A DNA stretch of 55,983 nucleotides, counting the filler, from Dugesia japonica (lineage: Eukaryota): the NCBI GenBank assembly GCA_001938525.1. It is 4 parts of 4 records of this genome, joined end to end, with 100 filler letters (N's around TTAATTAATTAA, not from the genome) between each part and the next. Parts side by side here need not be neighbours in the genome. Positions count along the whole stretch, not along the records: positions 1 to 11,550 come from MQRL01619396.1; 3 more parts are not named here. One strand, written 5' to 3'. The notes below the pieces were generated by a model. The model worked only from the letters and a program-made list of their open reading frames with translations. It was not told the origin of the DNA and searched no databases. Positions 1 to 52,377 of the stretch are shown here, one piece after another. Position numbers and translations under genes: made by a program. Every line of letters begins with the position of its first letter. Positions within the stretch are counted from its first letter, which is position 1.

Positions 1-393
1 GTGTCATTTTTTCTTTCTACTACTAATTATAAAACTTTTAAATTATAAAACTACTAATTATAAAACACTAACTATTACTGCTACTAATTATAAAATGATT
101 GTATTAAAATTTCATATATATATGTATATGATAAACTACATATATGTATTAATATAATAATATTTAGCGTATAGAATATTTTATTTTCAACATTGAATGT
201 GACAATCAAGTTTCTAAAGTTTCTCGGAGAAATTTAATTTTTTTTTGAATGTAATTATGGAAAAATGAATTTTTTCATTGATATTGATAACATTAGAGAT
301 AACAAATTTTTTCTGTGGTAATCGTTTTTTCATGCAAGTATTTATATTTATTCAAATAATTTACAAATATATCTAATCAACAGCAATTGTAAA

Positions 394-1130
394 AATAACT
401 AATCTGTTATAGCTGTCTAGCTATAATAAAAGGTGTAAGAACTGTTCTTCTCAGTTTCATCCATGAGGGGTAGCAGATTTTTGCTTTTAAAATTTGAGAT
501 GAATCTGTCATTGATCGATCATTGACGGAGTCTCGAGAAATCCTGGAAAGAAGTGAAATGTCTTTAAATTGAAATTAATTAAAGTTCAAAATAATTTATG
601 GTAACCAATGACCTTGACCTACTTTNNNNNNNNNNNNNNNNNNNNNNNNNNNNNNNNNNNNNNNNNNNNNNNNNNATAATTAATCTGTTATAGCTGTCTA
701 GCTATAATAGAAGGTGTAAGAACTGTTCTTCTCAGTTTTATCTATGAAGTCAGTTTTATCTTATCTTTAAAATTTGAGATGAATCTGTCATTGATAGAGC
801 TTCCAGAGCTCTCTAAAGCAGTGAAAATTCTCTCTTTTTTTAAAGTGTAAGAACTGTTCTTCTCAGTTTTATCTATGAGGGGTAACAAGTTTTTCGCTTT
901 AAAATTTGAGATGAATTTGTCATTGACAGAGTCTCGAGAGCCTCTAGAAAGTAGTGAAATCTCTTTAAATTGAAATTAATTAAAGTTCAAAATAATTTAT
1001 GGTAACCAATGACCTTGNNNNNNNNNNNNNNNNNNNNNNNNNNNNNNNNNNNNNNNNNNNNNNNNNNTAAATTGAAATTAATTAAAGTTCAAAATAATTT
1101 ATGGTAACCAATGACCTTGACCTACTTTTT
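394..1130 (+). repeat. Imperfect tandem/local duplication (units of a few hundred bp, interrupted by N gaps)
   Basis: Blocks taatctgttatagctgtctagctataat, gtgtaagaactgttcttctcagttt, aaaatttgagatgaat and taaattgaaattaattaaagttcaaaataatttatggtaaccaatgaccttg recur 2-3 times; partly possible assembly redundancy around gaps. Confidence 0.85.
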
Positions 1131-1309
1131 TGAAAGCGACTCTGGCCTAGTTTCAGTTGCTAAGGACGGTTGCCATGGTAACCAATGACCTAAACACTGT
1201 TGCTAACGCGGTTGACATGGAAACGACATTGACCTACATTGGTTGCCATGGCAACGGGGGGACCCCCCCGTTGACCTACTTTGTTCTAGTGTCCTCCTAT
1301 CTATCTACT
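1131..1309. mobile_element. Putative Polinton/Maverick terminus with RFX-like boxes and a GC hairpin
   Basis: Ends CTATCTATCTACT (1297-1309; AGTAGATAGATAG on the minus strand), identical to 52365-52377; X-box palindromes at 1169-1182, 1211-1224, 1242-1255; a Helitron 3' end is an alternative reading (hairpin 1252-1273, CTAG 1286-1289). Confidence 0.5.
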
Positions 1310-1799
1310 ATCTCACTATCTACTAGTATTATCCAACTCTTTACTAGTATTTTACAATCTCTACTATCTACTGATATTTTCTTACAATCTACTGGTATTC
1401 CTCCATTCCACAATAGAAATATCTCTGTAATAAAATTATTCTATATATGCAATGGGTTTTCTTTCACACTCAACTGGCTTTATCACATTGTAAATGACTT
1501 TCTCTAACTTTATCTAACATCATTTGAGAACATCATGATCCAAATATTGGCTAGTCTATATTAACATTAACAATAATATTGCCCGGGATGTGAACACTAA
1601 CATTAATCTTAACATCAATATTGTCCAGGGGAACATCTAATATAATAGGAAAAGTAAGTCTTTGTGTATATAATGTTAATGATTTTCTCTGGTTTTATAA
1701 GTGTTTTATTGTTAGAAATGTCTACGTTTTTAAATGAATTATATATATTCTTTAGGGCTAATGTAAACTGTACATTAAATAATATAGGTTTCAAAGCCA

Positions 1800-3200
1800 A
1801 TACATAGAAGTCTTCACATTAAAATTGCATTTAATCATAGAAAATGTAAGTTTACTAATGAAAAATTCTAAATCAACACATAACGGTATAATCCATTGCA
1901 CAAAATCTTTATTTAACTCATGAAAATTATAACTCAACACATGAAGATCACATAGAAGTTAATTAAAATTTCTAAGATTTTCTAAAAGATTTACTAAAGA
2001 TTTAATAAAACTCTTAACCAACAATTTAAACTTATAATCTTTCACACAAGAATGTAGCTCATTGAAATTTCTAAGACAACCTTTAAAATTTCAATCAATC
2101 TAACAAAAGTCCGATCGAACTTATAAAAAGTAACACTCAACAAGTACATTTCTTAGTCAACACATAAATTCATAATGTAGCACACTAAAACTACAATCCA
2201 TCACACAGAATTGTAACATATTACACTAAAATTACAATCTATTTCAAAAGATTTCATTCAATCACAGTAAAATTCTAAGTAGTCACACCAAATTTCTTAA
2301 CCAGTACATAAAAATTATAATTGATCGTGCTAAAAATATATACAGAAGTCATTGAAAATATTTAAAAATACATATAAGTCATTAAATTATTTCAACCGTT
2401 GTATATTTCTATTAAAAAGCTTTATAAATTTTACAGATGTATTCAATAACAATCAAAGATTACAGAAGATAATAAAATTTCGAAGTAAGCAGTCAAAAAT
2501 TCAAACCAATAAGTGAAACCTATAATCTACCACACTAAATATATAGTTCATCACATTGAAATTTCTAAGTCAACGTTTTAAAATGTACATTTCATCAATT
2601 AACATTCTAAAACAACACATAAAATTACTCAGTCAACATGTAAAATATAGGATTCATAATTGAAAACAAACATTTCAACATGGAAATAATCACTTTGTCC
2701 TGGAAAATTATAATTTTATCACAAAACATGTACACTTCATCATAGAATATACATGTATCATCATGATAAATACACGAGTCATCATTGAGAATTAGAGACA
2801 AATACATAGAAAGTATATTATTCGTCATTTAAAATACAACTGTCATCATAAACCTAAAAATTCATAAGATTTAAAGTGCTTCTGTTTTATCTGTTTCAAT
2901 TTAATAAGAATCAACTTTTACCAGCGTTAAATTCATAAGAATAAAAATATAAAGTTTAAATAATTAAAAATTAAAATTTATCAGTTTGAAATTAATATGG
3001 AACAAATTTACCAGCTTGACATTAATATGAATCAAAGTTTAGCAACTTGTAATTATTATTTATTAAAATTGATCAATTTTAATTTCACATGAATCAAATT
3101 TTATCTGCTTAAAATTAATACGAATCAAATTAAACAGTTTAAAATAAATAAAATTAATAAATTAAAATTTATCATTTAGAATTAATGTTTTTTAAAATTG
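1800..3200. repeat. Degenerate ~21-bp-period minisatellite region
   Basis: Recurrent aaaatt(a/c)taa..caacac(a)-like units; aaaatttatcagtttgaaattaat-like units toward 2900-3180. Confidence 0.55.
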
Positions 3201-3884
3201 ATTTTGATAAATTAAATTTAATTAATTTATTAAAATATGTTAAACCATTATTTATTATTAAATAATTTTGTTTAAAAATATTGATTAAATATGGCCTGAA
3301 TGGAATAATTTCACATGTTTCGCCAATTAACAATATAAAGTAAGATGTTTTATTTAAATTGCTATATTATTAATTTTATTTTAGATTATTTAAAAAATCT
3401 ATTATGATTTGTAATATATAATTTAAAATTTAAAATTTATTGTTATCAATGTTATTATAGAATTTGATAAATTATGAAATTAAGCAAGGATTTATTTTTA
3501 TTTAAATTAAACGGTAATAATTTTCTTAAATTGTAATAATTTTCGTAATGATTTTATTTAAAGTTAACAATTTTTAAAATTAATAATTTCTTTTCAGTTA
3601 ATAAATTGATTTTCAGGTGATAATAGTATACGTTATAAAATCTTTATAATATGATTAAAGTTATTAGAGATATGGTAAATTATTACGAATTATGACCATT
3701 TTTATGAACTTTGATAATAAGTAAGGATTTATTTTATTTAAATATAATGGTAATGATTTATTAATATGGTAATTTTTTTTTCTTAAATGATTTAACTTAA
3801 AGAACCTTTAGTAATTCTTTTTTAATTCTTTAATGATAATAAGTAATGATTTTCTGCAATGATTTATTTTAAGATTTATTTAAT

Positions 3885-4230
3885 AACATTTGACCTGGAA
3901 TTATTTACTATTTTGCGAATCTGAGTCCAGTCAAATATTAGGATTGAGGACTAACTGTTTTTATCTTATAAAGATTATACAGTTGTAGCAATATATATTT
4001 GAGACCGGATGTGAACGGTCAGAAGCATTGCTACCAGAGATGCACATACTGTATTGGAGCTTAGTCTAGTTAAAACTACACAAGCTGATCGATAAGTTCA
4101 ATCATGAACGAACTCGATTGGATGCTAACGAACCTTGATGTATTCGCTCCGTCGGACTGTACATGTTAGAGAAGTTAATGTAATGGCATGGAATTCAAAC
4201 TGTTATGGAAACAATGTATGGAAATAATTT
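3885..4230 (+). repeat. Interspersed repeat, homolog of 17170-17510; possible decayed ORF
   Basis: Shared blocks tctgagtc(c/t)agtcaa, aacggtc(a/g)gaagcattgctac(c/t)agagatg(c/t)acatactgta, gataagttcaat...gaactcgat. Confidence 0.8.
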
Positions 4231-4779
4231 TAATAACCTTATTGATAAGTTTACTTAGAATACAAATAATATACGGCTTTCATTAATTATACTAAGTCAG
4301 AATTATTTACTAAAACATATAAATATTAAAATGATTTTCCTTGGAATAGTATTGGTTTCTTTTGGTAAGCAGCTAATATTAAAGGAACTGTGAACATCTA
4401 ATGTTAGGAGTATTGAATCGTTTTGTTCAGGGATCATCCTATTTTGGTTACAGCCAAGAGAGCGTATCCATAGACATTTCATAGTTTGTACCCTGTAACC
4501 ACCAATGTTTCAAACCAAGATCTTATAGTTTGAACACTGAAACATATATTAGAATGAGACTTGAACATATAATGTTATTATTGCTCGGAGAATATTTAAT
4601 GATAATATAAAATCACATTCAATAAATTTTGTTTAATTTAAATAAACATAAGATTTTCAATAACTTCCATAAAGATACTCAAAGTAAATAATTTCATTAA
4701 AATTAAACAGATAATCATTTATTTCGATTAATTTAAACAAGGAATCATAAAACCACTTATTTTAAACAAAAAAACCATT

Positions 4780-5104
4780 TGAAAAAAAATTGGCCAATCA
4801 AATCGTTGGAAACATGTGCGTGACCAATCAAATTGAAGCCCTCAGAAAAAAGCCTTAATGGCACCAATAACGTTATCACACACCTGAAATTTTTACCAAT
4901 CAAATTGTAGGAAACATGTGTGCAGCCAATCAAATTGAAGCCTAAAAAATTCCGTAATGGCACCAATTACGTAATCACATACCTGAAATTTCGAAAAAGA
5001 AAATTACAAGAAACATGTGTACAGCCAATCAAATTGAAGCCCAAAAAAATTGGGGGTTAGGTTGACGAAAAGTATGTGGGGCCGTGCGCTTCTGAGTACC
5101 TACT
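4780..5104. mobile_element. Putative Polinton terminus with ~100-bp subterminal tandem repeats rich in CCAAT
   Basis: About 2.5 copies of a ~100-bp unit (aaacatgtg...ccaatcaaattgaagcc...aatggcaccaat), then a G-rich tract, ending TACCTACT (AGTAGGTA on the minus strand). Confidence 0.55.
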
Positions 5105-5767
5105 ATTTTGAAATGACATCTATGACATTTTTTAGGCATTTTTATGTAAATTTAATTTCGCTTATGTAATTTTAGTGTATTTTATTGACTTCTAGTCATT
5201 TTTGGTCGTATTTTAATGACATCTATGCATTAAAATTGAAATATTTATGTAATAAAACATATTCAATTTTTGAAATGATTTGTTTAATTTGCAGTTGCTT
5301 TGCATTTGTATTGCATTTAAATTGTTTTAACGAAGAAATTTCAATCAAAAGATGATAATAATCTAAGTACCACAATTTCAACCAATAAAAGCCATACTTA
5401 CAAACTATACATTAAATAATTATCAACACTGAGTATAAAAGCAAAAAACATTTAATAAATTTTCATTATTTAAAAATGAAGCAAATTATTGGGTTAGCAA
5501 AAGATAATGTTATGACCATCGCTGTGAATTACGGAAAGCCTACAGAATTTCATGGAATCTAAATGAAAACAAAGTTGGAAAACCAAAAAAAAATCAAAAA
5601 CTAGAAAGTCAAAAATCAGTTCAAAAATCTTTTTTAAAAAACAAGTTAGACTGAATAAGTTCAAGAAGATAGCAAAACTCTATAGAAAAAAGCTTAGAAA
5701 CGTAAATGAATATCAATATAAACAATCTGTTTATATGTAGATAAAATATAATATTTAGATAAGAAAA

Positions 5768-5965
5768 ATGAAATCACATCAAAGTATTCCATTTTTTTTA
5801 CCTTTAATCAAATCACCAAGTATAATTAGAGTGAGAATCCTGCAGGCATTTCCAGCCTGTGTTGTTGATGATTTAGTAGAAATCATTAGAGATATTTTTA
5901 GCGGTTAGTTATATGAAAAGCCTGCTTGGATATTACCATCGCAAATAGTTAATAATGAAAAATAA
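5768..5965 (+). pseudogene. Polinton remnant: PW/core-protein-like N-part fused by deletion to a probable integrase chromodomain tail
   Basis: Translates ...IRVRILQAFPACVVDDLVEIIRDIFSG*LYEKPAWILPSQIV; the first half resembles the small Polinton protein with CLCECALNILKG, the second resembles the KGY...SWIP chromodomain end; lies directly before the penton. Confidence 0.35.
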
Positions 5966-6320
5966 TTTCTATACACTTTTGCCGAGTTATAGTAGTCATC
6001 TTGTTTATCAGGATACTAATGGTAGTAATTTCATTGTTGAAATTCAAATTGCAATTAATTAGGAAGGTAGTTGGCAAGTAGCCATGACGGATTTCACTTA
6101 TGTATCAATCATTTCCTATATATAGTAAATCTAGAATTGATTATGAAATATTTCAACAAGTTAGTAGTGACTTGTTTTTACTTATTGATAACAAACAAAA
6201 AATAACTCGTTTAACTATTTCTTATAAAGGTTTTGATAAAGATTATAAACCTAATGCAGCTCTCAATGATAATACGCTAATATTTAATAATACTAGTGCT
6301 GTTAGTTCAGAAAGTGCTTT
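5955..6320 (+). pseudogene. Polinton/adintovirus minor capsid protein (penton, PX), N-terminal remnant
   Basis: MKNNFYTLLPSYSSHLVYQDTNGSNFIVEIQIAIN*EGSWQVAMTDFTY matches the penton N-terminal pattern FYxxLPSNSS...N..SNFxV.L...I.L.G.WEV.L.EI.Y; internal stop and frameshift. Confidence 0.85.
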
Positions 6321-6324
6321 GATG

Positions 6325-6734
6325 TTTAATACTCTTAAGGGTGATTATAAATATTCTATTTCAACATTTCAAGATTTAAATGTTACTTTCTTGTCTTTAG
6401 CAAAAAATATTGGTTATCGAGAGACAGATACTCAGGATTTTGAAAACGAACAATTATAGCACTACATATATCCAATCTATTGTTCAAAATATGGTATATT
6501 TGGATATGAATATGAATTATGAATTAACTCTTGATGAATTCAAAACCAAATATCCATTTTTACAATCGTGCTTGATCCGGATTTCGATATAAATCAAAGT
6601 CAATTACCACAACAAGGAAATTTGAGATTAAATATAAAGTTTGCAAAAGCTTTGACTGTACCAGCGTATGTTATTATTTATGGAGTATTGGAAAAGGAAA
6701 TTCAAATCAATGCTATAGAACAGTATTAGTGTAA
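6325..6734 (+). pseudogene. Polinton/adintovirus major capsid protein (PY/hexon-like), C-terminal remnant
   Basis: FNTLKGDYKYSISTFQDLNVTFLSL...QDFEN/NYSTTYIQS...ELTLDEFKTKYPF/FTIVLDPD...QGNLRLNIKFAKALTVPAYVIIYGVLEKEIQI parallels the MCP pattern FAFDLTPD...GNxRLE..F..AL....CIVYAEF...I.I; two or more frameshifts. Confidence 0.85.
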
Positions 6735-6737
6735 ACA

Positions 6738-7135
6738 ATATCGTGTAAAATCGATAAATGTTATGAAGTAAGTTTAATTATATTTATGATTTTTATTTAA
6801 TTAGTTCTATTCAGATTGCAACAAAGTGGATTGGATCAGCATGGTTAGGTGTCTATCCATTAGACAGGATTCCATATATACCATTGAATAAAGCATTAAT
6901 CGTCAATACCCATACATCAAACCTAGGTGGAGAACATTAATTAGCTATTAACAATAAACCATCAAAGATATTGGTATTCGATTAGTTTAAGTATTATTAT
7001 CCATCAATGTTGGTATCACATCTATTGAAAATGTCAAAAACAATTAAGTAAAATAAGATATGCTATCAACCATGGTTTACTATAACCTGTGGACAATATT
7101 TCTTATTGGGGTTGAGATATCAACATTATAGTTGA
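6738..7135 (+). pseudogene. Adenain-like (adenovirus-type) cysteine protease of Polinton, with predicted intron 6768-6814
   Basis: WLGVYPLDRIP...ALIVNTHTSNLGGEH*LAI...VFD*F...NKICYQPWFTITCGQY retains catalytic H, D and Q..CG motifs; three in-frame stops; GTAAGT...TTCAG intron joins SCKIDKCYE in frame. Confidence 0.88.
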
Positions 7136-8559
7136 AAATGTACATTGATGTATTGATGTTTTTTGAAAATAAATGTAATTAAAAAAAATTTGTCTTGTTT
7201 TCATTTGTTAATAACTAATAATATATAGTCTTACAGTATTACATATAACAAGATTTGACTTAATTTTTGGACTTAATTTAAAATTAACTAATGATATACA
7301 CACGTAGTTAGATAACACAGAAAGAACAAAAAAGATAAGAGAGTATATAACACATTACATATTTCATTTTCATCAGTTGTTAATTAAAAAGCAAAATGTA
7401 GAGGAGCTTCGCAAAACATGCATTGAATCAGCATAATCAGATGGCCAGCAGGATCTAATTAATGATAAGGTATTTCTTTTTTTAATAATTAATATTTTTT
7501 TAATTTTTACTTTCAGATATTATTTCGATAATTCTTTTAAGAAAAAGATGGGTTCCTTAAAAAGAAGAATATCAAACAGTTTTAGAAGGATATTACAAGG
7601 ACATATATTTGTGCGCTCTTTGCAAATGCTACAAGTGTATATATATATATGCTTCTTGAGAATCTTGTAAATTTGTGTTAATACATTTTTTGTTAATAAA
7701 ATATTTTTCTTTTTTATTTTCATATAGTTATTTATAATAAAGTTTTTAGTTAATTTGGTGGTTATTTTTTTTAAAGTAATTTATTTGAAATACAGTTTTT
7801 ATTATTTAGTTAGTTAATTTGATAGGTATATCTTTATAAATATTGTGATTTATATATAGTTAATTAAAAAAAAGTCAAATAAATAAATACCATTTATTAT
7901 AATAACGTTTTTATTAATTGAGTTAATGTTGTCTCCATTTTTCTTGACTCCTTGTATTTCCACCTGTATCATATATTGTTGGGAATTTTCGAATAAAATC
8001 GATTTGATGAAAACTGTATCCTTAATTGTAATCGTTGGTTAAATTCTTTGTAATAATAAATTCAAAGTATTCATGTCTTTGGAACCGATATTGGATATCA
8101 ACACACTATACGTAGAATTTTGTATCTTTACAGGTTCCTATATAAAAATTTTAAAAGTCCTTTGTTCTTTCTTATTTGATTTTTTCGTAAAGTATGCATT
8201 TTATCATACTTATCTTTAAGACAATGTATAGGTAGACTTTAATCTCTATTTGATAGTATCAAATTTGAGTCTGTGCACGCTTTTTAAACATTAAAATTTT
8301 AAACATTTAATAACTCGACACCAATACATCAGATTAAAATTCCGAGATAGCAGTTATGTTCAACAGTACCAAGGTTGTCATCATAGCGTGTATGTACTTG
8401 ATTTAATCTTGATTTTAAAAGTGGTGATTTTAGGTGGTTTACTGCTGACATAACTACTCTATTGTTCTTCACTTTTCGATATGAAGAAAGCATTTTTGTC
8501 TTTAAGTCTTTCAGGTAATGTATAGTTGATTTTCGATTTTATGATGTTTTTTTGAAAAA

Positions 8560-8847
8560 AAAGTATGACTCATCAAAAAATTCAAAATGTCTGGAGCGTA
8601 AGGGTTAGGGGGTTTGGGTAGTGGGTAGGAGGTTTTTGTTCAAAAAAAAGTATAACTCATCAAATAATAAAGTTTTAAAAAATTTAAAACAAAATTAAAA
8701 AATAATTTAAAAAAAATTTTTTTTTAGAAAAGATGTAGCCAAAAAAAATTGTGTGTGGCCCAAAAAATTGAGCATGGCCAAACAAAAGTGGGCGTGGCCA
8801 AAATGGGTGCTGCTGTGACTCATTGGGGGATGATATTTCTACCTACT
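8560..8847. mobile_element. Putative Polinton terminus inserted next to/into a PolB gene
   Basis: ~20-bp repeats ending tggcc, GGGCGTGG box, two TGACTCA, G tract, ends CTACCTACT; PolB coding sequence starts immediately after. Confidence 0.55.
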
Positions 8848-9700
8848 CTACAGGACTTGGGAATGCATCGGTTATTTTTATCATGAATTAGAGGTGGCAT
8901 GACATTTGTAAATACACATTACGTTCGGGCAGACAAGAATACCTCACTGCAATATATCGATATAAATAATCTATTCGGTTTGGCCTTAAAACAGTCTTTA
9001 ACATATAGAGACTTTGAGTTTTTACCGGAAGATCAGTTGGAAGAAGTATATCAGAAGTTATTATTATCAAGCAGTGAAGAAGGATTGTATATGTCTGGAT
9101 AGACCAAGTTACATTAGACAGACGGGGCTGGATCTTACCAAGCTACGCATGTACAAGTTACAGTATGAAGAGTTGGAAAATATCGAAATCAATTTGGTTG
9201 TGAAATCCTTATTACCGGTGAGATAGATAGCACTTTCTTGTCATGCACTGGAGTGGACAAAAACGGACTCTTAAGAGAATTTAAATTTGTGGTCTGCTGA
9301 ATATAATAAATTATTCAAAGGAACACTCATTATACTCTAGTAATGTAACCAACAAGATCTGGTCATTTAAAAATGAGGGTCAAGGAGAGGATTATCTGGA
9401 ATGGGTATTTTTGAGACCTAAATGCTATAGCATGAATAAGGAAGATGGCAGCACAACTATGAAGGCTATAAGAGTTGGTTTGAAAAAAACTTATATTCGC
9501 CATGATAACTATTTGGACTTCTATACCGAAGCAGAAGAAGTAAAGAAGGTAAATCAGAGCACATTCAGGTCACTTAATCATCAGACTTATACAATAGAAA
9601 CTAAGAAATACGCGTTATAATATGTGGACGATAAGCTCTTTTGGAAGGAAAAAAATAAGAGTATGGCCGATGGCCATGATCAAATAAATAACTCAATTTT
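8848..9700 (+). pseudogene. polB: Protein-primed family B DNA polymerase (Polinton/adintovirus pPolB), internally deleted C-terminal remnant
   Basis: IRGGMTFVNTHYVRA...LQYIDINNLFGLALKQSL (YxDxNNLYG motif), LDLTKLRMYKLQY, a degenerate DTDS, FKNE...LRPKCYS, FRSLNHQTYTIETKKYAL*YVDDK...ADGH. Confidence 0.92.
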
Positions 9701-9805
9701 ATAATCAAAAATAATCGTTATTTTGTTTCGATGTCAACCAATTCCAATGCTGCATTCAGATTGTTACAGAAGAGGAAAGCCTATGTTTTTTAATAATAAG
9801 GTTTT

Positions 9806-9872
<67 letters not shown>

Positions 9873-9922
9873 NNNNNNNNNNNNNNNNNNNNNNNNNNNN
9901 NNNNNNNNNNNNNNNNNNNNNN

Positions 9923-10359: not shown

Positions 10360-11420
10360 ATAAATCAATAACTTCCATGTAATCTGTTCCTTGAATAATA
10401 TTAGAATGTCATGTCAGTAGAATTCATATTGCACGATTTTTACACGTGTATTGTGCACATAATATATATTTATTGCAACATGTTGCGCATTAATACATCA
10501 TGTAAATTTCAAAAAAAATGTTTTGATACTTCTTTGCAATTTCATAAATTAATTTCTGACTTCTATCCAATTTAATAAAATATGTAGTGACTTCTAGTCA
10601 TTTTTAGATTTACTTTCTAAAATATGATTTTGAAGGAATTATAGACTTCTATGAAATTTATGATTATCTTTTCAACTACTATATAATTTCAGATAAAATT
10701 ATTTGACTTCAAGTAAATTAGATAATACTACTTTGCACTTTCTGGACCTCATTTACATTAGCTTCCTCATACTCTTGTTCTTACTTATCATTGTTTTAAG
10801 TAAAGACACATACTAAGAATGAAGTGAAACCTTATTTGGATAAGAAATAATTGAATATGTATAACTTGTTTGTTAATAGTTTGTTCTAAATAATAAATTA
10901 TAATGTAGTGGGGCTTCTTACAAAAATTAGTCTATTGAATGTTTCTTGTTTAATAGCCTTCTATTTAATTATAAAAAACCTATATGTGTCATATTAAAAT
11001 TTATATTGTATGGTTTAAACCAATATTTTCATGATAAATCCCATTTTTACATGATAAAATTTTAAATTAAACCAATATTTTCATGAGAATACCCATATTT
11101 GCCATTAAACATATACTTTCCACTTAACCGATATTTTCAATGTTGAATCAAGTATTTATTATGACAAAACCTGTATTTCCTATGTTAAACTCTTATTTTC
11201 CAAGAAAGTTTCTGGTAATTTGACATTTAAAAGAAAATGAAATACATAAAACCAAAGTTAACAAATTAAAGCAAATAGCAAGCAAAGAACCAGAAGGATA
11301 ATCAAATGATGAAAACATACTGAAATAGTTAAATTATTTTAAATAAGAGATATGAGATATCAAGTGTTACTCACTATCACTCAGTCGTATAGTTTTCTTN
11401 TATCTCTTACTGTTACTTTT
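10360..11420 (+). repeat. ~1.1-kb interspersed repeat, inverted homolog of 44640-45820
   Basis: Colinear shared blocks ttccttga(a/g)taatat.agaatgt, attcatattgcac, catgtaaatttc, aaaaccaaagt, atactgaaata, ttactc(a/g)ctatcactcagtc. Confidence 0.8.
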
Positions 11421-11550
11421 TAAAGATTAAGATTCAATAGAACGTAGAGTAAAATATAGATAAATAGAGTAAATGATGCTTGTATGTATGCTTTATTGAA
11501 ATAAAAATGAAATTAGAAAGAAGTATTCAGTTTTTTATCGCCTTGATTAA

Positions 11551-11650
11551 NNNNNNNNNNNNNNNNNNNNNNNNNNNNNNNNNNNNNNNNNNNNTTAATT
11601 AATTAANNNNNNNNNNNNNNNNNNNNNNNNNNNNNNNNNNNNNNNNNNNN
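11551..11650. other. Artificial assembly spacer N44-TTAATTAATTAA-N44
   Basis: Exactly 100 bp with a six-frame stop linker; identical design at 22037 and 37373. Confidence 0.95.
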
Positions 11651-12142
11651 CCATAAAAAGTATTATTTCCTTAATAAATAGCTATTATAATAAAATTAAA
11701 ACCACCATATAAGAATTATAACTAAATTAAATATTAAATAATTCCCTTAGCAGAATTGTCAGTTATATTTTACGTAACTGTTAAAGTCATTATTAACTTG
11801 GCAATAATTGTAAGCTTCATATGAGAGAACTATTGAAACAATAATCAGTAATAATAAAGCTGACAAAAGTTTCAACCAATCCATCAAACTTTTTATCGTG
11901 TTTTTTATATTAATTGTATTGTTGAATTTTATTTCTGGTTCCGTAACGTTAAATTGCAATTGTTGCTCTATAACGACATCATTGGCTGGATCAATAATTG
12001 ATTTACAAGTAATCGTTTTGAAATTACCAGATTTGTCAGCAAATAATACCAATCTTATAACAACATCTAAATTTTTCAAATTTAAAATTTTGAAATCCTG
12101 ATTTTCTAAAAGGATTTTAGCAGAATAATCTTTCCATTCACA
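11651..12142 (-). repeat. Near-identical duplicate of the 3' half of the 300-aa gene (probable assembly/haplotype redundancy)
   Basis: Matches 12193-12682 apart from about two synonymous differences; separated by a 50-N gap. Confidence 0.85.
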
Positions 12143-12300
12143 NNNNNNNNNNNNNNNNNNNNNNNNNNNNNNNNNNNNNNNNNNNNNNNNNNCCATAAAA
12201 AGTATTATTTCCTTAATAAATAGCTATTATAATAAAATTAAAACCACCATATAAGAATTATAACTAAATTAAATATTAAATAATTCCCTTAGCAGAATTG

Positions 12301-13203
12301 TCAGTTATATTTTACGTAACTGTTAAAGTCATTATTAACTTGGCAATAATTGTAAGCTTCATATGAGAGAACTATTGAAACAATAATCAGTAATAATAAA
12401 GCTGACAAAAGTTTCAACCAATCCATCAAACTTTTTATCGTGTTTTTTATATTAATTGTATTGTTGAATTTTATTTCTGGTTCCGTAACGTTAAATTGCA
12501 ATTGTTGCTCTATAACGACATCATTGGCTGGATCAATAATCGATTTACAAGTAATCGTTTTGAAATTACCAGATTTGTCAGCAAATAATACCAATCTTAT
12601 AACAACATCCAAATTTTTCAAATTTAAAATTTTNAAATCCTGATTTTCTAAAAGGATTTTAGCAGAATAATCTTTCCATTCACAGTCTACTGAAAATGTT
12701 GTATTAATGAGTATTGGATTGGATGCATTCGTTTTCATTACTAATTGATATTGATGCGGATAAATATTCATTTGAACAGCATAAATTGGTGTTATCTTAG
12801 GAAAATCGATATCTCGTCTTTGAATTGAAACTTCCAAATTTAGAGTATGATCAACCGATTGGAATTCAATTTCAAAGTAAATGACTTTATTCCAGTAAAA
12901 ATTTCGTTTCGGTTTAAAATGTAGATATTCTGCGAGATTGTGAGACATTTCAGCTAGGGGTTCATAACGAAAAACATACTCGTTATCATAATTCAAATAA
13001 AATGCTTCTCCAGGATAAAGTTTGCGATTTTCCAATAAACCTATTGTTAAATTAACTAAAGTATTTGATTTAACTGGAAAAGGGGGTTGTAAATCTACAT
13101 CATAAATCTTGTCGTAGTCGATTTGTTGTCCATGTTCATTAGAAATATTCCCAAACAAATTGTAGAGAATTATTAAAAAATAACTTGAAATAAATTTATT
13201 CAT
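12301..13203 (-). CDS. Single-exon type I membrane protein (300 aa), possible Ig-like domain
   Basis: Long intact ORF in AT-rich DNA; N-terminal hydrophobic signal; Cys pair VDCEW...LVLFADKSGNFKTITCK; TM LLSALLLLIIVSIVLSY; short tail. Confidence 0.85.
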   Translation of the reverse strand: MNKFISSYFLIILYNLFGNISNEHGQQIDYDKIYDVDLQPPFPVKSNTLVNLTIGLLENRKLYPGEAFYLNYDNEYVFRYEPLAEMSHNLAEYLHFKPKRNFYWNKVIYFEIEFQSVDHTLNLEVSIQRRDIDFPKITPIYAVQMNIYPHQYQLVMKTNASNPILINTTFSVDCEWKDYSAKILLENQDXKILNLKNLDVVIRLVLFADKSGNFKTITCKSIIDPANDVVIEQQLQFNVTEPEIKFNNTINIKNTIKSLMDWLKLLSALLLLIIVSIVLSYEAYNYCQVNNDFNSYVKYN

Positions 13204-13570
13204 GTAGTTATTCAGAATAGAAATTTAATTTCAGTATTGAATGTATCTATTGGTAAACTATTGATTATTTGAATATTATTATTTAAATTAATTATTGATT
13301 AAGTATAATAATGATAGAATTCTGTACTACGGAACTTCGAATCTTAAATGTTTTAGAAATGGAATATAAAATAATATAGAATTTACTTTTAAGATTCAAA
13401 CTCGAATTGAATTGACAGGTTCTGAATTTTTGTCGACAAACATGGATAAGTTTATATATATTGTTAAATTAACTAAAATATTTGATTTAACTGGAAAATA
13501 TATATATAAAAATCGAAGAAAAATTACAATTTTATAATAAAAACTCTGAAAACTCCATTTAAATATATTT

Positions 13571-16478: not shown

Positions 16479-17169
16479 AACTACTCAAACTACTAAAATA
16501 TAGCAATAATCTAAAAAAAACTTCTCCCACATAGCGTGGTAGCTAAGTAAATACATGGTAACTAAGTAAATACTAGCTAACTATGTAAATAATAAATTAA
16601 TTTTTAAAAATTTAATTTTATTCATTTCATATTAGCATAATTATAATAATTACAATTATGATAATAAGAAATTAAAAAATCAATTAATATATTGATTGCT
16701 TAATTTTATATTACTATAATTGTAATTATTATAATTATGGCAATATGAATTAGTATTTTTAATTTTAAATACATTTAAGATATTAAAATTAAACAATCAA
16801 TTAATATATTGATTTTTTAATTCCATATTTACTTAGTTGTTTTAAAACTTAAAAATGGAGAATTAAAAATGGAGAATTTAAAAATGATGAGTTTATTACA
16901 TTTACATGTTTATTGTTTTAAATGAATTATTTAAATTATATTTTAAAGGTTAATTTAATATAAATTTAGGTAAATCAAATAAAAAATTCACTTTATTATG
17001 CGGTCTATTATGATTAAAGATTCCATTAATATGGTTAATTATGTTTAAAGGTTCCATAGTAATATGGTTTATGATATTTAAAGGTTCCTTTAATATGGTA
17101 AAAAAATGTGTCACAGATGTATAATATATGTGCTAAATAATATAAAAATTAGATGTATTGAGTAAATAA

Positions 17170-17510
17170 CAGTTGCCTTGGAATTCCTTACCATTTTGTG
17201 GATCTGAGTCTAGTCAATTATTGACAATGATGACTGATTGTTCTTTTTTAAAACAATTGTAGTGGTGTTCAAATATGACCGTATGTAAACGGTCGGAAGC
17301 ATTGCTACTAGAGATGTACATACTGTAAATCGAGCTTAGCCTAGTTTGAACTACGCAAGTTGGTTGATAAGTTCAATTGTGAATGAACTCGATCGTGTGT
17401 TATCTGACCTTAATGGATTCTTTCTGTTAGACTGTTGTATGGCGGATGAGGTAATGCAACGGTATGGAATGAAAACAATACTGTTACTGAAACAATGCAT
17501 GAAAATAATT
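17170..17510 (+). repeat. Second copy of the 3885-4230 repeat
   Basis: Colinear similarity over ~330 bp. Confidence 0.8.
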
Positions 17511-18959
17511 AATTATTATTATTAATAATTTATTTAAACTAATTAACTTATAAAAAATTAATTAATGTCTTATTCTTTAAATACCTTTGAGCAAAAAATA
17601 TTTAGACTGCCCTTATCATATATATTTAGACTTAAAAAAACTCACGACACTCTTTAATAAAAAAAATTTAAATTCCACCACACCCGCAAAAAAATATTAA
17701 AATTTAATTACCCACAAAATTCCACTATTAATTAAAACGAAAATCTCAAAGTTCCACTAAGAATTAAAAATAAAATTCTATTAATTAAAACAAAAAAATT
17801 CCACCCTCCACGTTCAAAAATTTTTGATCACGATCAAAAAAATTCATCCGATTAAAAATTGATCCAGCCAAAACTCCGATCACCCCATTAATCCACCCGA
17901 TTCACTCAGAATTGAGTGACAACCAGTAAAAAAATAGCCTTACAATCCTAATTGAGTGACAACCACTTTACATAATAGTGGCACTAAAATCGTAGCACAA
18001 TCGTAAGCAATTATCTAACTCTTGAGAAGAATTGATTTTTGACATTGATTTTTGTTTTCCTTTGATCATAATAAATATTTTTGGATTAATTTATTGTTTT
18101 ATTTGCTGACTTTTTATATACATGTATTTGATAATTTCCAAAAAATACCTTTGAATACTAATAATAATATATATTTCAATAATATTTAATAAGAAAATAA
18201 TAAATTTTTTTATTGATATTAATAAGTTATGTCTTTTTTCATTTAAACAAAAATTTTAAAGTCATAATAATTCAATAAAAAATATTAATTATAATTTTTG
18301 AATAATTTTTTAAATAATTTTTTATAAGAAATATTTATAAAAATTAATATGTATTTGATAAAAAAAATTATAATATTTATAAAATCATGTTATTCAACAA
18401 GATTTAATAATAAACTCAATAATGTCCTTATTCCACTTTATATTTTTCTAAACATCATCAAAAATATTAATTTTACAATTAATGTGTTTAAGGTATCGTT
18501 TGATGTGTAAAATTTCACATTATTGTGTGAAAACTCAAAGTGTGAACAAAATCCACGTCTATGACAAAAACATTTTTATAATAATATTGTGTAAAAAATC
18601 ACTTGTAAATAAAAGAAAAATAGTCGTTTAAGGTGTGAAAGTAGCGTCAAAGGTTTGAAATTTAAATTAATGTTTGAAAATTTTTATGACAATAAAAAAT
18701 ATATTATTTGTGAAAATTAATTGTAAAAATTCAGACTTAATACTGTTTACGTTAAAGATGTGAAATTTGGCGGCAAAGTTGTGAAAAATCACACCTTAAG
18801 TATCGATTTCAATGTTTATATACAGTTGTGAAAGTTCTTATTTGAGATAATGTTAACATCCTGGCCCCAGACAGCTCATAACCCCCTACTAACAACGCAT
18901 GATAAAATAATAATAAAATAACACTATAAAAATTTATTTTTAAATAAAAAACATTTATA

Positions 18960-19400
18960 ACATCAATTTCACGTAACTATTAGTTCTACTATTTAATCTT
19001 TTGATCTTCCACATGACACCAGTTGATTTATGAACTTCGTGTATCTTTTACTTTTACTGGTAACATCCATTCAGATTTATTTTTTATAAATTTATCATTT
19101 ATTATTCTCGTCCTCATCATTAAGATTGATGAAAATTGAATCCTTTATTTTTATATCTTTGCTTAACCTTGCAAATAATGCTTCTAATATGTTTTTATCG
19201 TTCGTGTTAATATCGGAAAGAAGCAAACTCTATTTTTATTTTGTACTCAAAACTGGTTTCTGAAAAATTAATAATTTATAATAAAAACAATAAATAAAAT
19301 TACCTTGAAGTCATAAATAATAGGATTCCTGATGAAATATATCTTGTGATAATGGAAATCTGTAATTTTTCCAGATTCCATGGTAATTGATGAAACATTG
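18960..19400 (-). pseudogene. Decayed unknown gene with a predicted 44-nt intron (19260-19303)
   Basis: Minus strand AAG|gtaatt...tttttcag; coding-like LLLSDINTNDKNILEALFARLSKDIKIKDSIFINLNDEDEN with stops; upstream CCAAT/TATA-like layout. Confidence 0.35.
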
Positions 19401-39388: not shown

Positions 39389-40810
39389 TTAGTCATTCAA
39401 CATTTCATTATAAGTAACTCCATATTGTATCGGAACAGTTGCGTCTTTAACTTTCCAACACGGTGAATTTTGCGTTTGNACAATTTTAATATAAGGTAAA
39501 CCACTAATCGTGTGTCTATCCAAAGGTTCTTCACTGTCGACATCTGGAAATGGTAATTTTTCTTGGGGTAAATTAGTTGCAATTGGTGGTAAATCAGGAA
39601 AGGGTGGCGCAAGATAAACAGGTGTTTTCTTTGGCATAGGACCCAAACCTTGAATTACACGACAGCCTAACGAACTGGTTAATAATGGATTATACTTTTC
39701 AATAATTCTTCTCCGCTTCTCCTTTTCCATTTCCAATAATGCAGTATCACCGTGAAATGTCGGTATTTCTAATTTGGGATAAATAGATAACAGTTTAGAG
39801 AAAAGTTGACTAAAGTTTTTCCTTAATAATAAAGCCGTATGCGATCCAGGAACAGCATAATTTCTCTTGGGAGACGTTAAATTGTTAAGAATCGGATCAC
39901 AAAATCTAATAGTTCTATCTTCAACGTATTCAGTGAAAAATGCAGTCACATCATTCGAAAGTCGTCGTTTTTTCCCGATTATCAATGTGTAAATTCCCAA
40001 GAAAATAAAAACAACCAGAATAAAGGCTAAACAAATAGAGAGTGCAGAATAATTGATAATTGTGATAAATTTATATCCATGGTTAACGTAAAGCGCAACC
40101 GGTTCAGTAATAAAAATATCGCTAAATTTGCATGTTATATTCAACTGATAAACCTGAGGATTTATTTTACCAACAATTTCCAATACATAACTATCATATA
40201 AATATCTCTCCGATAGAATTGTCAAATTAGAGCTAGACGGCAATATTCTCAAATAATCATCGAATAAATATTTCCAGGGAGTTATTAAAGAACATCGAAT
40301 CTTTATTTCATCAAAGGTTTTGTAAAATAATTTATCGAAATTAAGTTCAAGATCACCAAATTGAAAATTAATACCATACGACTGTTCGATTATTTGTTTA
40401 TAATTCTTTTCATAAATCACCATTAAAGGATACCCATGAAGATTAAATGAAACTTTTAGATAATTTACAATAATACATTTTGTTTTAACAATTGTTTGAT
40501 CGTAAACTATATAAATAGACGCAGGAAAATCTTTATGGGCAGATATTATAAGCCTTTCACTTTCTTGCCAATAATGATATTCTGTACAATTGTAAAATCT
40601 TATTGTTATTTTATGAATTGAATATCGAGTATCCAATTGAATTTCAACAGGTCTTAACTCGAATTTTCTTCGATATAATCTAGGAAACTTCGGTTCAAGA
40701 GAACTTACAAACGGAATTTTTATATCTAACTCATCCCCAAGATTAAATGATGATATTACCAATAAATTCCACTTTATGATAAAATAAAAGCCAACAATAT
40801 TTATAAACAT
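39389..40810 (-). CDS. Type I membrane protein (473 aa), possible Ig-like domain, long Pro/Tyr-containing cytoplasmic tail
   Basis: Signal-like N-terminus; IRCSLITPW...VLEIVG...LNITCKF Cys pair; TM SALSICLAFILVVFIFLGIYTLIIG followed by KKRR; tail PVYLAPPFPDLPP. Confidence 0.88.
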   Translation of the reverse strand: MFINIVGFYFIIKWNLLVISSFNLGDELDIKIPFVSSLEPKFPRLYRRKFELRPVEIQLDTRYSIHKITIRFYNCTEYHYWQESERLIISAHKDFPASIYIVYDQTIVKTKCIIVNYLKVSFNLHGYPLMVIYEKNYKQIIEQSYGINFQFGDLELNFDKLFYKTFDEIKIRCSLITPWKYLFDDYLRILPSSSNLTILSERYLYDSYVLEIVGKINPQVYQLNITCKFSDIFITEPVALYVNHGYKFITIINYSALSICLAFILVVFIFLGIYTLIIGKKRRLSNDVTAFFTEYVEDRTIRFCDPILNNLTSPKRNYAVPGSHTALLLRKNFSQLFSKLLSIYPKLEIPTFHGDTALLEMEKEKRRRIIEKYNPLLTSSLGCRVIQGLGPMPKKTPVYLAPPFPDLPPIATNLPQEKLPFPDVDSEEPLDRHTISGLPYIKIXQTQNSPCWKVKDATVPIQYGVTYNEMLND

Positions 40811-41989
40811 TCCATTGAAATATTATTGAATTAATAATTAACATTAATTGATAAATTATGGATTAGTTTTAATAAACTAACATTATAATATTATATTATC
40901 TAATTAAATACTAAGAATGATTAAATTAACAGACTTCATAAAAAACCAATAAACATGAAAACTAAGCTTTAATAAGTTTTATTTAATAATCGAGTGTTTT
41001 ATAGTAAATATTAGCAGCATTTTTAAATATTACTACAGGCCATGAAATTTGTTATGCTAATATTTTTTTCAATTAAAATGTTTTATCATTTTCATATTAA
41101 AACATAAAACTTTCATATTTTTAATAATCAATAAACTTAATAGTAAAATAAAGCTTAATTACTAAACTAATGATAAAAGAATTTTATCGTTAAAACACAA
41201 TTAGACATTTTGATAATTTTAGCAGATAATTTAATTTAATGGAAATCATATATTGATGTTTATAATTCAAAATGATAAAACTTACAAATATTGGTAATTC
41301 TAATTCAAAATTACAACGTTTTACAAAATTTAAAATAGAAAATAAAATATGATTTTATTATTGTACTTAAACAAATGAAAAGTTTTATTTGAATTTTTTG
41401 TGGACAAATTGAATTTTTTTACAATTATATAATAAGTTAACTTTTAAAGTATATAATCATAAACGAATTATATAAAAAATTTTATTGTTCATAGTTTATT
41501 TATAAATAAAATATTGAATAAGACAATATTACATGATTTTCAAAGCACCTGCGTAAAACTATGTTTATTCAAACTCCAAATTCAAAATTCTACTCCCAAA
41601 ATACTTCAAATAAACAAGATTGTTAATTATTCTAAAATCAATTAAATTAAAAAATTTAACTTCGATAGTCTTCTCTCACAATAATGAAATGTTTCTTTAA
41701 TTTTTAATAAGATAACTTTCAAAAATTTGAATTAAAAACAAAAAGAAACAATAAAACATTTAAAGTTTTGCAATATACTTATACACACTCAATAAGTATT
41801 GCATTTGATATCTTTTCACAGTTTTAATCTTTCTGTTCCGGAGTGGGGTACATTGAGACCGGAATAATCTTGTTATTTTTAACCAGTTGCCCAATAATCT
41901 AATAAATGGATGATTCAGGAATGATATAATGGGATTTAAAAATTATAGAACATTGTCAAAGTTAATTTTAGTTCATTAAATAGGAAAAT

Positions 41990-43628: not shown

Positions 43629-44639
43629 TTTATTATTCAAATAAATATAAATATATGTTAATTCGTACAAACAATCAAGTTTAAACAAAACATATATTGT
43701 TTCATTTAAATTAAAATAGAAAGTTATTTAGTTAAAATTAATTAATTAGAAAAAAATATAAATCAAGTTTTTGTATGACTTTAACCATTCTACCTATTCT
43801 TCTCTAATTTGCCCCCCCCAATTTTATTCTTTATTTTACTCTTATTTTAACCCTATTTACACATACGTGACCCCTATTTAATTCTTATTTACACCCTATT
43901 TTGTCTTGTTTTGTCTTATTTTGTCCTGTCTTTTCTATTAACCATACTTTTACCGATTTTGCCCAGTTTTCCCATTGTCTGCTCTATTTCCCCATATTTT
44001 CTAGGATTTTTCTATATTTTCTTTATATTTATTTATTAAGTTTCAAATAATAGAAATAACTCATCGTTTATTTTATTGGATTAAANATTAAGTCCATTAC
44101 AATTTGAGCTCAATATAGGTTCCAACATGAAAATTATAGGTCTGTCTTGTGAAATATTGGTATTCCAATCAATAAAATTCTCCACTATTTGCTTACTTCT
44201 CATCTGAGCCCTGCTTGCACATTGGTTTGTTTGCTTGCTCTTTGGTTTTTATGGGTTTCATTTTCTTTTAAATACCTAAATATCAGTGACATTTTTAGTT
44301 AAATCAAACTTTAGCTTTTAATGTAAACATTATTATATGGTTTCCATATGGAAAATATGAGTTTCATCATAGACAAATTATGGACTTATCATAGAGAATT
44401 TAATTTTACCATTAGAAAATATGAGTTTGGACATAGAATATATTTAATAGAGTAAATCTAGTTACTACTTATACTACATTTATTCTATACATAGTCATTT
44501 ATTATGCTTAATTTGTCTACTTTTTATCATTTTTGACTTATTTTCCTACCATTTACCATACTTTAGTCATTTACCCTATATTTTCCGTATTGGTTTTTAT
44601 GTATATATCCATAGATCTCACTTCAATAATCTTTAAATA

Positions 44640-45820
44640 GTGGCATATATTAATAAAAGAATACAATAAGACTGAGTGATAGCGAGTAAGAGTTGATATG
44701 TTATGCTTTTTATTTAAAATAATATATTTCAGTATATTTTAATGATCTCGTAATCTTTCTCCTTTTTTGTTTGCTATTTGGTTTCCTGCGTGCACTTTGG
44801 TTTTCATTAGTTTATTTTTATTTAAATACCTTATTATCAGTAAAGTTGTTAAAAAATATGAGTTTAACTTAGAAAATACTGATCTTATCATTAGAAATAT
44901 TGATCTCATCATTGAAAATATTAGTTTCAATAGATAAAGTTATAGTTTCATCATTAAAAGCATCGGGTTTATCGGGAAAATACTCGTTTTTTCATAAAAA
45001 TGTGAGTTTTATAATGGAAACTTTGGTTTTATCACGGAAATATTGGTTTTATCATTGTATATAAGACTCTTGAACTAGATATTTTTAATACTTTAAATTA
45101 AGAAATATTGATATTTTCATCACTTAGACAAACACAGGGACAAACAAGTAATAATTATTCAATTATTTCTTATTCAAACTATGTTTCGTTTCATTCTGAA
45201 TAAGTTTCCTTGAGTTAAGTTAGAAAAATGATCAGTAAAGATAAGAGTGAGAAAGATCAAATTTTTTGAATCTCGTGAGATTTAATCTGAAATTTTATAG
45301 TAGTCAATAAACATTATTTGAAATTTCNTAGTANTCGATANAAATTATCTGAAATTTCAAAGTATTCAATAAATATTATATGAAATTGCACAGTAGTCGA
45401 TAAATATTTCAAAATCATATGTATAAGAGCGAGTAAATAATTTAATTATTGCATAAAAGTATCCAAATATTATATGAAATTGCACAGCAGGCACAAATTA
45501 TTTTATAAAATTGCACATTAGTCGATAAAAAGTTTATGAAATTGCGCAGTAGTCGATAAATATTTTCTTAATTGCACAGTAGTCGATAAATATTTTGTGA
45601 AATTGCACAGTAGTGGTAAATTATTTTATGAAATTGTATAGAAATATTAAAACATTCTATGAAATTTACATGAAATATGCAAGATGAATGATAAATATGT
45701 TGCATTACATACAGACTATGTGTCCAGTACAAGTGTGAGAATAGTGCAATATGAATGCTAATCACTCAACATTCTCATATTACTCAAGGAAATGAATAAA
45801 TGAAAATTATTGATTCTAAT
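44640..45820 (-). repeat. Inverted homolog of 10360-11420 with an internal 30-bp minisatellite
   Basis: gaaattgcacagtagtcgataaat units at ~45290-45640; shared flanking blocks. Confidence 0.8.
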
Positions 45821-52019: not shown

Positions 52020-52377
52020 TCCTATAAAAAATTTTCCTAACTAAATACGCATCAAAAATATTGCTGCTTAAAAAGCCTGAAAAATTCTACTGCTTAAAAA
52101 GCCTACAAAAAATTTTCCCAACTAAATACAACTAATCACTTATGTAATAATCTCGCGACGAAATTAATTTTGCACACATAAATTTTGTTCTCGCCTAAAT
52201 ACATAAAAAATACTGGATCACTTACGTAATATTCTCGGACGAGATTAATTACATTATGTAACGCACATAAATGTGTGCCGCCACCTATTTACATTAGAAA
52301 ATACTGGATCACTTATGTAATATTATGATTGCGTCAAAGAGGGTAGGGGTGATCCAGTTCGCTACTATCTATCTACT
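52020..52377. mobile_element. Putative Polinton terminus with repeated TTA(C/T)GTAA sites
   Basis: Repeats aaatactggatcactta(c/t)gtaata; G-rich tract; ends CTACTATCTATCTACT. Confidence 0.55.

What the first reader, a model, noticed from the sequence alone, without database searches (positions are those of the whole stretch)
1131..9700. Nested Polinton/adintovirus graveyard hidden below the ORF track
Seen: penton N-terminus, MCP C-terminus, adenain-like protease and pPolB remnants in frameshifted frames, plus three co-oriented AGTAG-type ends (1309, 5104, 8847). The order (PW-like)-(INT tail)-penton-MCP-protease follows the usual Polinton layout but is compressed by deletions. The end at 8847 abuts mid-PolB. 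Inference: several different Polintons inserted into one another, and the proteins look divergent enough to represent an uncharacterised lineage.
Basis: partly seen in the sequence, partly recalled or inferred. Interest (0 to 1): 0.72.

Follow-up and report, generated by a model that had tools for sequence, protein, structure and literature searches.

The report
Decayed Polinton virus fossil pile-up
This stretch holds broken, heavily deleted remains of Polintons (virus-like jumping elements common in animal genomes), probably from at least two elements with one inserted into the other; it is a fairly ordinary genomic fossil whose nearest relatives are unnamed environmental sequences.

Summary
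The Polinton remnants are real. Homology confirms a penton N-terminus (5955-6339), a major-capsid C-terminus (~6340-6714), an adenain-type protease (6815-7114) and the C-terminal part of a protein-primed PolB (8848-9692). All carry stops or frameshifts, and large internal deletions shorten the set. The order matches a near-complete Polinton contig (L006). The 'INT tail' was not verified. The 'PW-like' piece has only moderate support and resembles the gene upstream of INT. AGTAG alone is common (91 sites), but the three named ends are among the GC-richest and carry subterminal repeats. PolB homology starts at 8848, one base after the 8847 end, which supports an insertion into PolB. Full nesting is unproven: no partner TIR, TSD pair or PolB N-half lies in the window, and no core genes were found between 1310 and 4780. 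The proteins are not deeply isolated: unnamed environmental relatives reach 44-61% identity for PolB, and one PolB fragment nests among them. No named Polinton was available for comparison. Verdict: a new member of a known kind, of modest interest.

The parts
1068..1309 (-). End-like segment E1: AGTAGATAG terminus at 1309 facing left, GC-rich, with internal 15-nt repeats; repeat units continue left across assembly gaps to ~395
   Evidence: first 20 nt resemble the end at 52377; Polinton origin inferred, no partner found
1310..1399 (.). Degenerate ~48-bp duplication with further CTACT copies (1324, 1365, 1372, 1393), which makes the exact E1 terminus ambiguous
2633..3150 (.). Dispersed repeat with 30/31-bp arrays, related to copies at ~11.1 kb and ~44.9 kb; not a Polinton core gene
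3874..4287 (.). Dispersed repeat, 72% identical to 17157-17566
4785..5104 (-). End-like segment E2: AGTAGGTA terminus at 5104, 99-bp subterminal tandem repeat, sharp GC drop outside (0.52 to 0.20)
   Evidence: Polinton origin inferred
5801..5947 (+).
   Evidence: score 59, 0 of 300 shuffles; negative
5955..6339 (+). Penton (PX, minor capsid) N-terminal ~130 of ~350 aa; one stop, frameshift near 6100; rest deleted
6340..6729 (+). Double-jelly-roll major capsid (PY) C-terminal ~125 of ~410 aa, joined to the penton piece by a deletion; stop near 6457 and a frameshifted stretch ~6460-6550
6815..7114 (+). Adenain-type (Peptidase C5) protease pseudogene, 3 stops, His/Asp/Cys motifs recognisable
8006..8155 (-). 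Remnant of an unknown gene with a second decayed homolog at 19128-19280
   Evidence: score 82 against shuffle maximum 63 in 300
8540..8847 (-). End-like segment E3: AGTAGGTA terminus at 8847, 19-20-bp and 35-bp subterminal repeats; abuts PolB
8848..9692 (+). Protein-primed PolB, C-terminal part only (P0001 aa 789-875 and 1028-1231; ~150 aa deleted between them), stops and frameshifts near 9073, 9172 and 9268

Best explanation
The region is a pile of dead Polinton (Maverick/adintovirus-type) proviruses in an AT-rich, repeat-rich eukaryotic, probably animal, genome. SHOWN: a virion module (penton, MCP, protease) in the usual order and the back part of a pPolB are present as pseudogenes, cut down by large internal deletions. 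The PolB piece starts one base after an end-like sequence. INFERRED: element B (virion module plus right end at 8847) integrated, by the retroviral-type integrase that Polintons encode, into the polB gene of an older, related element A. The ends at 5104 and 1309 are right ends of further Polinton-type or non-autonomous elements that landed later inside this stack; their left halves lie upstream of the window or were deleted. Point mutation and kilobase-scale deletion then erased most coding sequence. Nothing here can now replicate, integrate or make a capsid; the locus has no evident function beyond being a fossil.
For: Four core-gene remnants score far above decoys. Folds of natural relatives match DJR capsid and penton. 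The order equals that of the near-complete Polinton L006: ATPase, small gene, INT, penton, small gene, MCP, protease. There are 8 stops in 639 homologous codons plus frameshifts. PolB profile homology starts at 8848, directly after the terminus at 8847, and PolB profile positions 1-710 have no significant match anywhere in the window. The three ends rank 2nd, 4th and 6th of 91 AGTAG sites for inward GC; only 0.8% of 100-bp windows reach 0.45 and 4.8% reach 0.40. Each has subterminal repeats. They are unlike each other beyond ~8 nt, so they are different families. 1068-9872 is free of assembly gaps. In L006, polB lies upstream of the virion module and on the opposite strand, unlike here. Decayed copies are the norm for the family: 96% of vertebrate loci (PMC8097293).
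Against: No partner TIR for any end (0 of 5 ends tested, 20 nt with up to 4 mismatches), so no TSD pair can be checked. The termini are not the published (AGT)2 or (AG)3 hexamers (PMC8097293), and AGTAGRTA is not enriched (8 against 5.5). The GC and repeat criteria were chosen after seeing the sites. No end matched any of 72 fetched loci at DNA level. INT and ATPase were not detected. 1310-4780 shows only other repeats. A tempting protein similarity between 4471-4539 and 8054-8122 failed the shuffle test. Same-strand modules occur in some single Mavericks (X. tropicalis, PMC8097293), so strand layout alone does not force two elements. No right end for element A was found before the gap at 9873.
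Confidence: 0.6

Rival explanations
1. One Polinton only (virion module and polB on the same strand), scrambled by deletions. The three ends belong to short non-autonomous AGTAG-ended repeats that inserted into or beside it, one of them into polB.
For: Similar lone ends occur elsewhere without any core gene (52377, weaker 18890). Penton and PolB relatives seem to share contigs (equal contig lengths 12568, 11339 and 6960; an inference), so both parts could come from one element type. Same-strand layouts exist (PMC8097293).
Against: No polB N-half lies left of 8540 or anywhere in the window. No left terminus closes a short element around 8540. The L006 layout, which shares the virion-module order, has polB elsewhere.
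Confidence: 0.2
2. The pieces are independent truncated elements brought together by host deletions or by side-by-side integration, not inserted into one another.
For: At least two, probably three, internal deletions of 0.45 to ~1.7 kb show strong deletion pressure. No left ends are present.
Against: A deletion would have no reason to stop exactly at the last base of a terminus; PolB begins at terminus+1.
Confidence: 0.12
3. Assembly chimera of collapsed repeats.
For: The window is a gappy draft with duplicated gap flanks (565-625 = 1068-1128; 11607-11906 = 12149-12448).
Against: 1068-9872 is one ungapped stretch. Gene order across the deletions is preserved, and the decay is consistent throughout.
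Confidence: 0.05
4. The 123-codon open frame 6088-6459, which joins penton to MCP sequence, is a selected, domesticated fusion protein.
For: It is the longest open frame in the region, and the deletion junction is in frame.
Against: It lacks the penton start and ends at a stop inside the MCP part. At the measured 1.25% stops per codon, a 123-codon open run has a chance of about 0.2. An in-frame junction has a 1-in-3 prior.
Confidence: 0.02

Closest known systems
Polintons / Mavericks (polintoviruses; PMC4028283, PMC8097293, PMC10748475)
   Same: pPolB of the PF03175 class, DJR major capsid (PY), penton (PX), C5 protease; order penton, MCP, protease; AG-starting end-like sequences; mutational decay, which is the usual state of genomic copies.
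   Different: No INT or ATPase detected; ends unpaired and not exact (AGT)2/(AG)3; no intact gene; penton relatives are ~350 aa; pieces of at least two elements probably abut.
Adintoviruses (PMC8502044)
   Same: Adenain, hexon, penton and PolB set. The comparison contig L006 has small genes upstream of INT and between penton and hexon, like the Beta-class labels in the text of Suppl. Fig. S2 (layout uncertain; positional inference only).
   Different: Integrase, FtsK and the OTU domain are absent from or deleted in the window.
Unnamed environmental Polinton-like proteins P0001/P0008/P0016 (PolB), P0121/P0123 (MCP), P0139 (penton)
   Same: Best matches: PolB 44-61%, MCP 39-44% over ~125 aa (63% over 57 aa with P0124), penton 52% over the first 50 aa. 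The PolB C-fragment groups with P0001, P0008 and P0016 (100/91).
   Different: They are open reading frames on short contigs without names or hosts; the window copies are host-embedded pseudogenes with a long terminal branch (0.68 against a median of 0.24).
L006 (12.7-kb Polinton-like contig inside a bacterial MAG record)
   Same: Same virion-module order; MCP 45% over 62 aa and protease 36.5% over 104 aa.
   Different: Its PolB falls in the outgroup side of the tree and lies upstream on the opposite strand; it retains INT, ATPase and a TBP-like gene.

Membership tests
Polinton/Maverick | [quoted passage not shown] | tested here: met
   Remnant 8848-9692 matches P0001 (PF03175, 98 bits) and 100+ relatives. 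C-terminal part only.
Polinton/Maverick | Retroviral-like (rve) integrase | tested here: inconclusive
   No significant match. Its expected place, just upstream of the penton, appears deleted, so absence from a fossil is not absence from the parent.
Polinton/Maverick | Double-jelly-roll major capsid protein (PY) | tested here: met
   6340-6714 against P0123; P0123 model matches PBCV-1, iridovirus and virophage capsids.
Polinton/Maverick | Penton / minor capsid (PX) upstream of the MCP | tested here: met
   5955-6339 against P0139; P0139 model matches mavirus penton, E 2.8e-8.
Polinton/Maverick | Adenain-type cysteine protease | tested here: met
   6815-7114 against the L006 Peptidase_C5 ORF.
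Polinton/Maverick | Packaging ATPase | tested here: inconclusive
   A 5-sequence profile and a pairwise test were negative; it may be deleted or lie upstream.
Polinton/Maverick | Paired terminal inverted repeats with an AG-type end motif | tested here: inconclusive
   Three end-like segments, none with a partner in the window and none with an exact published hexamer; partners may lie upstream.
Polinton/Maverick | 5-8-bp (usually 6-bp) target-site duplication | not testable with these tools
   Needs the left junctions, which are not in the window.
Adintovirus Alpha or Beta class | PolB and virion proteins cluster with Mayetiola (Alpha) or Terrapene (Beta) references; N-terminal OTU domain | not testable with these tools
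Nested Polinton stack | Mirror-order left ends and an interrupted target gene resuming on the far side | not testable with these tools
   Only the right-hand junction at 8847/8848 is visible.

The most novel reading that the evidence does not exclude
A true four-level stack of Polintons inserted into Polintons, reflecting a preference for integrating into their own kind. It belongs to a polintovirus clade so far seen only as unnamed environmental contigs (the P0001-type PolB with ~350-aa pentons), so this genome would supply the first host link for that clade, with a non-canonical AGTAG(A/G)TA terminus.
Probability: 0.2. Interest if true: 0.55.

Novelty: new member of a known kind. Interest (0 to 1): 0.27.

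Why it matters
As it stands, it is one more decayed Polinton locus of the kind that makes up most genomic copies, useful for repeat annotation because ORF finders and Pfam miss it entirely. It would matter more if the genome confirmed self-targeted nesting. It would also matter more if intact copies tied this unnamed environmental clade to a host, which would give a handle on which organisms these viruses infect.

Tried and rejected
Pfam on 12 whole frames and on 29 ORFs or pieces found no Polinton domain; the weak hits there are noise, except an RT at 48196. A PDB sequence search with the MCP alignment gave 0 hits. Pfam also missed all 18 MCP/penton-search hits scanned as capsid proteins. Rfam gave 0 matches. 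INT tail and ATPase tests were negative; one of four INT C-termini gave p=0.01 at a lysine-rich spot away from the expected position and was discounted. The idea that 4200-4780 and 7880-8560 hold the same gene was rejected (46-48 against shuffles 40.5 +/- 4.8). DNA similarity of window 1-9850 to 72 loci: none below E 0.02. An end at 19870 was rejected because repeat homology runs through it. An intron before the protease (~6770-6814) was considered by eye and is not needed to explain the alignment. The PolB fragment-A tree was unresolved. The atlas search of P0139 gave only unnamed clusters with a low recognition score. Literature searches listed no paper on Polintons nested in Polintons; I read listings only, and most subscription papers are not in the library, so this is weak. 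Unchecked: the rest of the host genome, RepBase, the viral contigs and metagenome contigs collections (closed), bioRxiv supplements, and the sequence file in the PMC8502044 supplement, which could settle the class and the 'uncharacterised' claim.
Full report
Setting. The window is a gappy draft of an AT-rich genome (16-38% GC per kb) with many tandem arrays, an RT remnant at 48196 and orphan membrane-protein ORFs, one with a weak Ig-like lead (0.88). This suggests a eukaryote, probably an animal; the host was not identified. The stretch 1068-9872 has no assembly gap. Pfam on 12 whole frames and on 29 ORFs or pieces found no Polinton domain, so the finding had to be tested by homology.

PolB. 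The piece 8851-9102, read with X at stops, found 1 protein among 112 candidates: P0001, 1235 aa, 51% identical, with PF03175 and Endonuclease_7 domains. P0001 maps to the window as aa 789-875 (8848-9093), 1028-1061, 1061-1098 and 1084-1231 (to 9677) in changing frames, so about 150 aa are deleted internally. P0001 itself has 376 relatives among 5419 candidates, 120 of them listed. A profile of 25 of these starts to match at 8848 exactly, and its positions 1-710 have no significant match anywhere in the window (best 1.8 bits against a decoy best of 2.0).

Capsid genes. The frame 6088-6726 found 26 proteins at E<=0.001 among 1.84 billion. Most match from ~6340 on; P0123 aa 282-405 gives E 2e-17. 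P0139 matches 5955-6104 and, in another frame, 6094-6363 (E 3e-22). An AlphaFold model of P0123 (pLDDT 84) matches PBCV-1, iridovirus, Sputnik and mavirus major capsids. A model of P0139 (pLDDT 92) matches mavirus penton first. These folds are of the natural relatives, not of the window's pieces. So a penton N-third is joined by deletion to an MCP C-third. PMC4028283 (part 1 of 4 read) identifies PY and PX as these proteins and places PX just upstream of, or one gene from, the MCP.

Protease and gene order. A scan of prokaryotic genome contigs with the PolB alignment gave 73 loci, many of them apparently eukaryotic or viral contigs inside MAG records (inference). Of 1318 ORFs from 72 loci, and setting aside PolB hits and rows under 30 bits, two hit the window, both from L006: its MCP and its protease (6815-7114, 36.5%, E 3e-12). 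L006 reads ATPase, small gene, rve integrase with chromodomain, penton, small gene, MCP, Peptidase_C5, the order seen in the window. The His, Asp and Cys motifs align. The small gene upstream of INT aligns to 5801-5947 (59; 0 of 300 shuffles), but its L010 homolog does not (p=0.06), and the profile search missed it. PMC8097293 (section 7) uses PW for the gene between the capsids, so 'PW-like' is probably a mislabel. The INT tail and the ATPase were not detected. Across ten homologous segments there are 8 stops in 639 codons: these are pseudogenes.

The ends. AGTAG occurs 91 times in the window, and AGTAGRTA 8 times against 5.5 expected, so the motif alone proves nothing. The published vertebrate motifs are (AGT)2 and (AG)3 (PMC8097293; passages and section 7), which none of the three matches exactly. 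In their favour, 1309, 8847 and 5104 rank 2nd, 4th and 6th of 91 for inward GC (0.51, 0.47, 0.44), each has subterminal repeats, and 5104 and 1309 have a sharp GC drop outside. These criteria are post hoc. The ends are not homologous to each other beyond ~8 nt and poly-T tracts, while 1309 shares its first ~15 nt with a fourth end at 52377 (1 of 500 shuffles). None of 5 ends tested has a partner in the window, and none matches the 72 loci. The best evidence for a real terminus is that PolB begins one base after 8847.

Nesting. Three right-hand ends with no left ends between them is what one flank of a nest looks like. The 8847/8848 junction is what an insertion into polB gives. The mirror half is not in the window, however, and 1310-4780 contains only other repeats. 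A suspected shared gene between the second and third segments failed its shuffle test. I therefore put an insertion of one Polinton into another's polB, with further ends piled up, at about 0.6. A single scrambled element with short inserted repeats gets 0.2, juxtaposition by deletion 0.12 and mis-assembly 0.05.

Lineage. The single-frame PolB fragments are up to 61% (fragment A; 171 of 173 hits kept) and 48% (fragment C; 140 of 148 kept) identical to environmental proteins. In a tree of 91 of 141 rows, fragment C sits in a four-row clade with P0001, P0008 and P0016 (100/91), on a long end branch as decay would give. Fragment A (93 of 172 rows) is unresolved but nearest to P0038 and P0008. The reference set was gathered with P0001, so this placement is partly built in, and no named Polinton is in the trees. 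Of 21 proteins looked up, only P0144 carried an organism name (Cordylochernes, ~29% to the MCP piece); P0198 (Holothuria) appeared. Equal contig lengths hint that the penton and PolB relatives come from the same elements (inference). The lineage is thus unnamed in what I could search, but well sampled and not deeply isolated. Alpha or Beta class (PMC8502044; passages, sections 7-8, and part 1 of 400 of a cut supplement) could not be assigned. PMC10748475 (passages and section 8) counts over 22,000 INT-linked pPolBs in eukaryotic assemblies, so a named or catalogued relative may well exist.

What is known. Degraded copies make up 96% of vertebrate Maverick loci (PMC8097293). Other mobile elements nested in polintons or PLVs are reported (bioRxiv 10.1101/2025.02.07.637071, passages; PMC12220804, passages). 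Searches listed no paper on Polinton-in-Polinton stacks, at listing level only. PMC11161782 and PMC3671162 (passages) added nothing on this point. Nesting of transposons in repeat-dense DNA is in general common (own knowledge).

Verdict. The nest is plausible but only one junction is shown, and the new-lineage claim is weak. New member of a known kind; interest 0.27.

Noticed in passing
window 52122-52377 (-): A fourth AGTAG-type end whose first ~15 nt match the 1309 end, with 82-91-bp-spaced subterminal repeats and no Polinton core gene detected nearby.
   Followed up: partly
window 18840-18890 (-): A weaker end candidate: AGTAGG followed by a short GC-rich patch, with a sharp GC drop outside.
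   Followed up: partly
window 19128-19304 (-): Decayed homolog of the unknown gene at 8006-8155, preceded by an intron-like GT...AG stretch of ~43 nt seen by eye.
   Followed up: partly
whole window: CTACT outnumbers AGTAG on the plus strand 65:26 (third most skewed of 307 5-mer pairs; 37:18 after collapsing clusters). Unexplained.
   Followed up: partly
window 7469-7518 (+): T-rich GT...AG stretch that looks like a short spliceosomal intron inside an unidentified remnant downstream of the protease; seen by eye only.
   Followed up: no
window 10363-11429 and 44627-45815: Two inverted copies (66-75% identical) of a ~1.1-kb repeat with 31-bp arrays, 33 kb apart.
   Followed up: no
window 48196-49650: Reverse-transcriptase remnant (RVT_1, E 1e-9) with adjoining ORF pieces; by recall it resembles an R2-like non-LTR element.
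   Followed up: no
window 39389-40822 (-) and 12301-13224 (-): Long orphan ORFs with a likely transmembrane segment; the first has a weak Ig-like lead (0.88).
   Followed up: partly
window 565-625/1068-1128, 11607-11906/12149-12448, 53105-53195/53583-53673: Identical or near-identical duplicates flanking N gaps, likely assembly artefacts.
   Followed up: no
L006:1-12666 and many of L001-L073: Polinton-like contigs sit inside bacterial and archaeal MAG records, probably mis-binned eukaryotic or viral DNA; L006 also encodes a TBP-like protein.
   Followed up: partly
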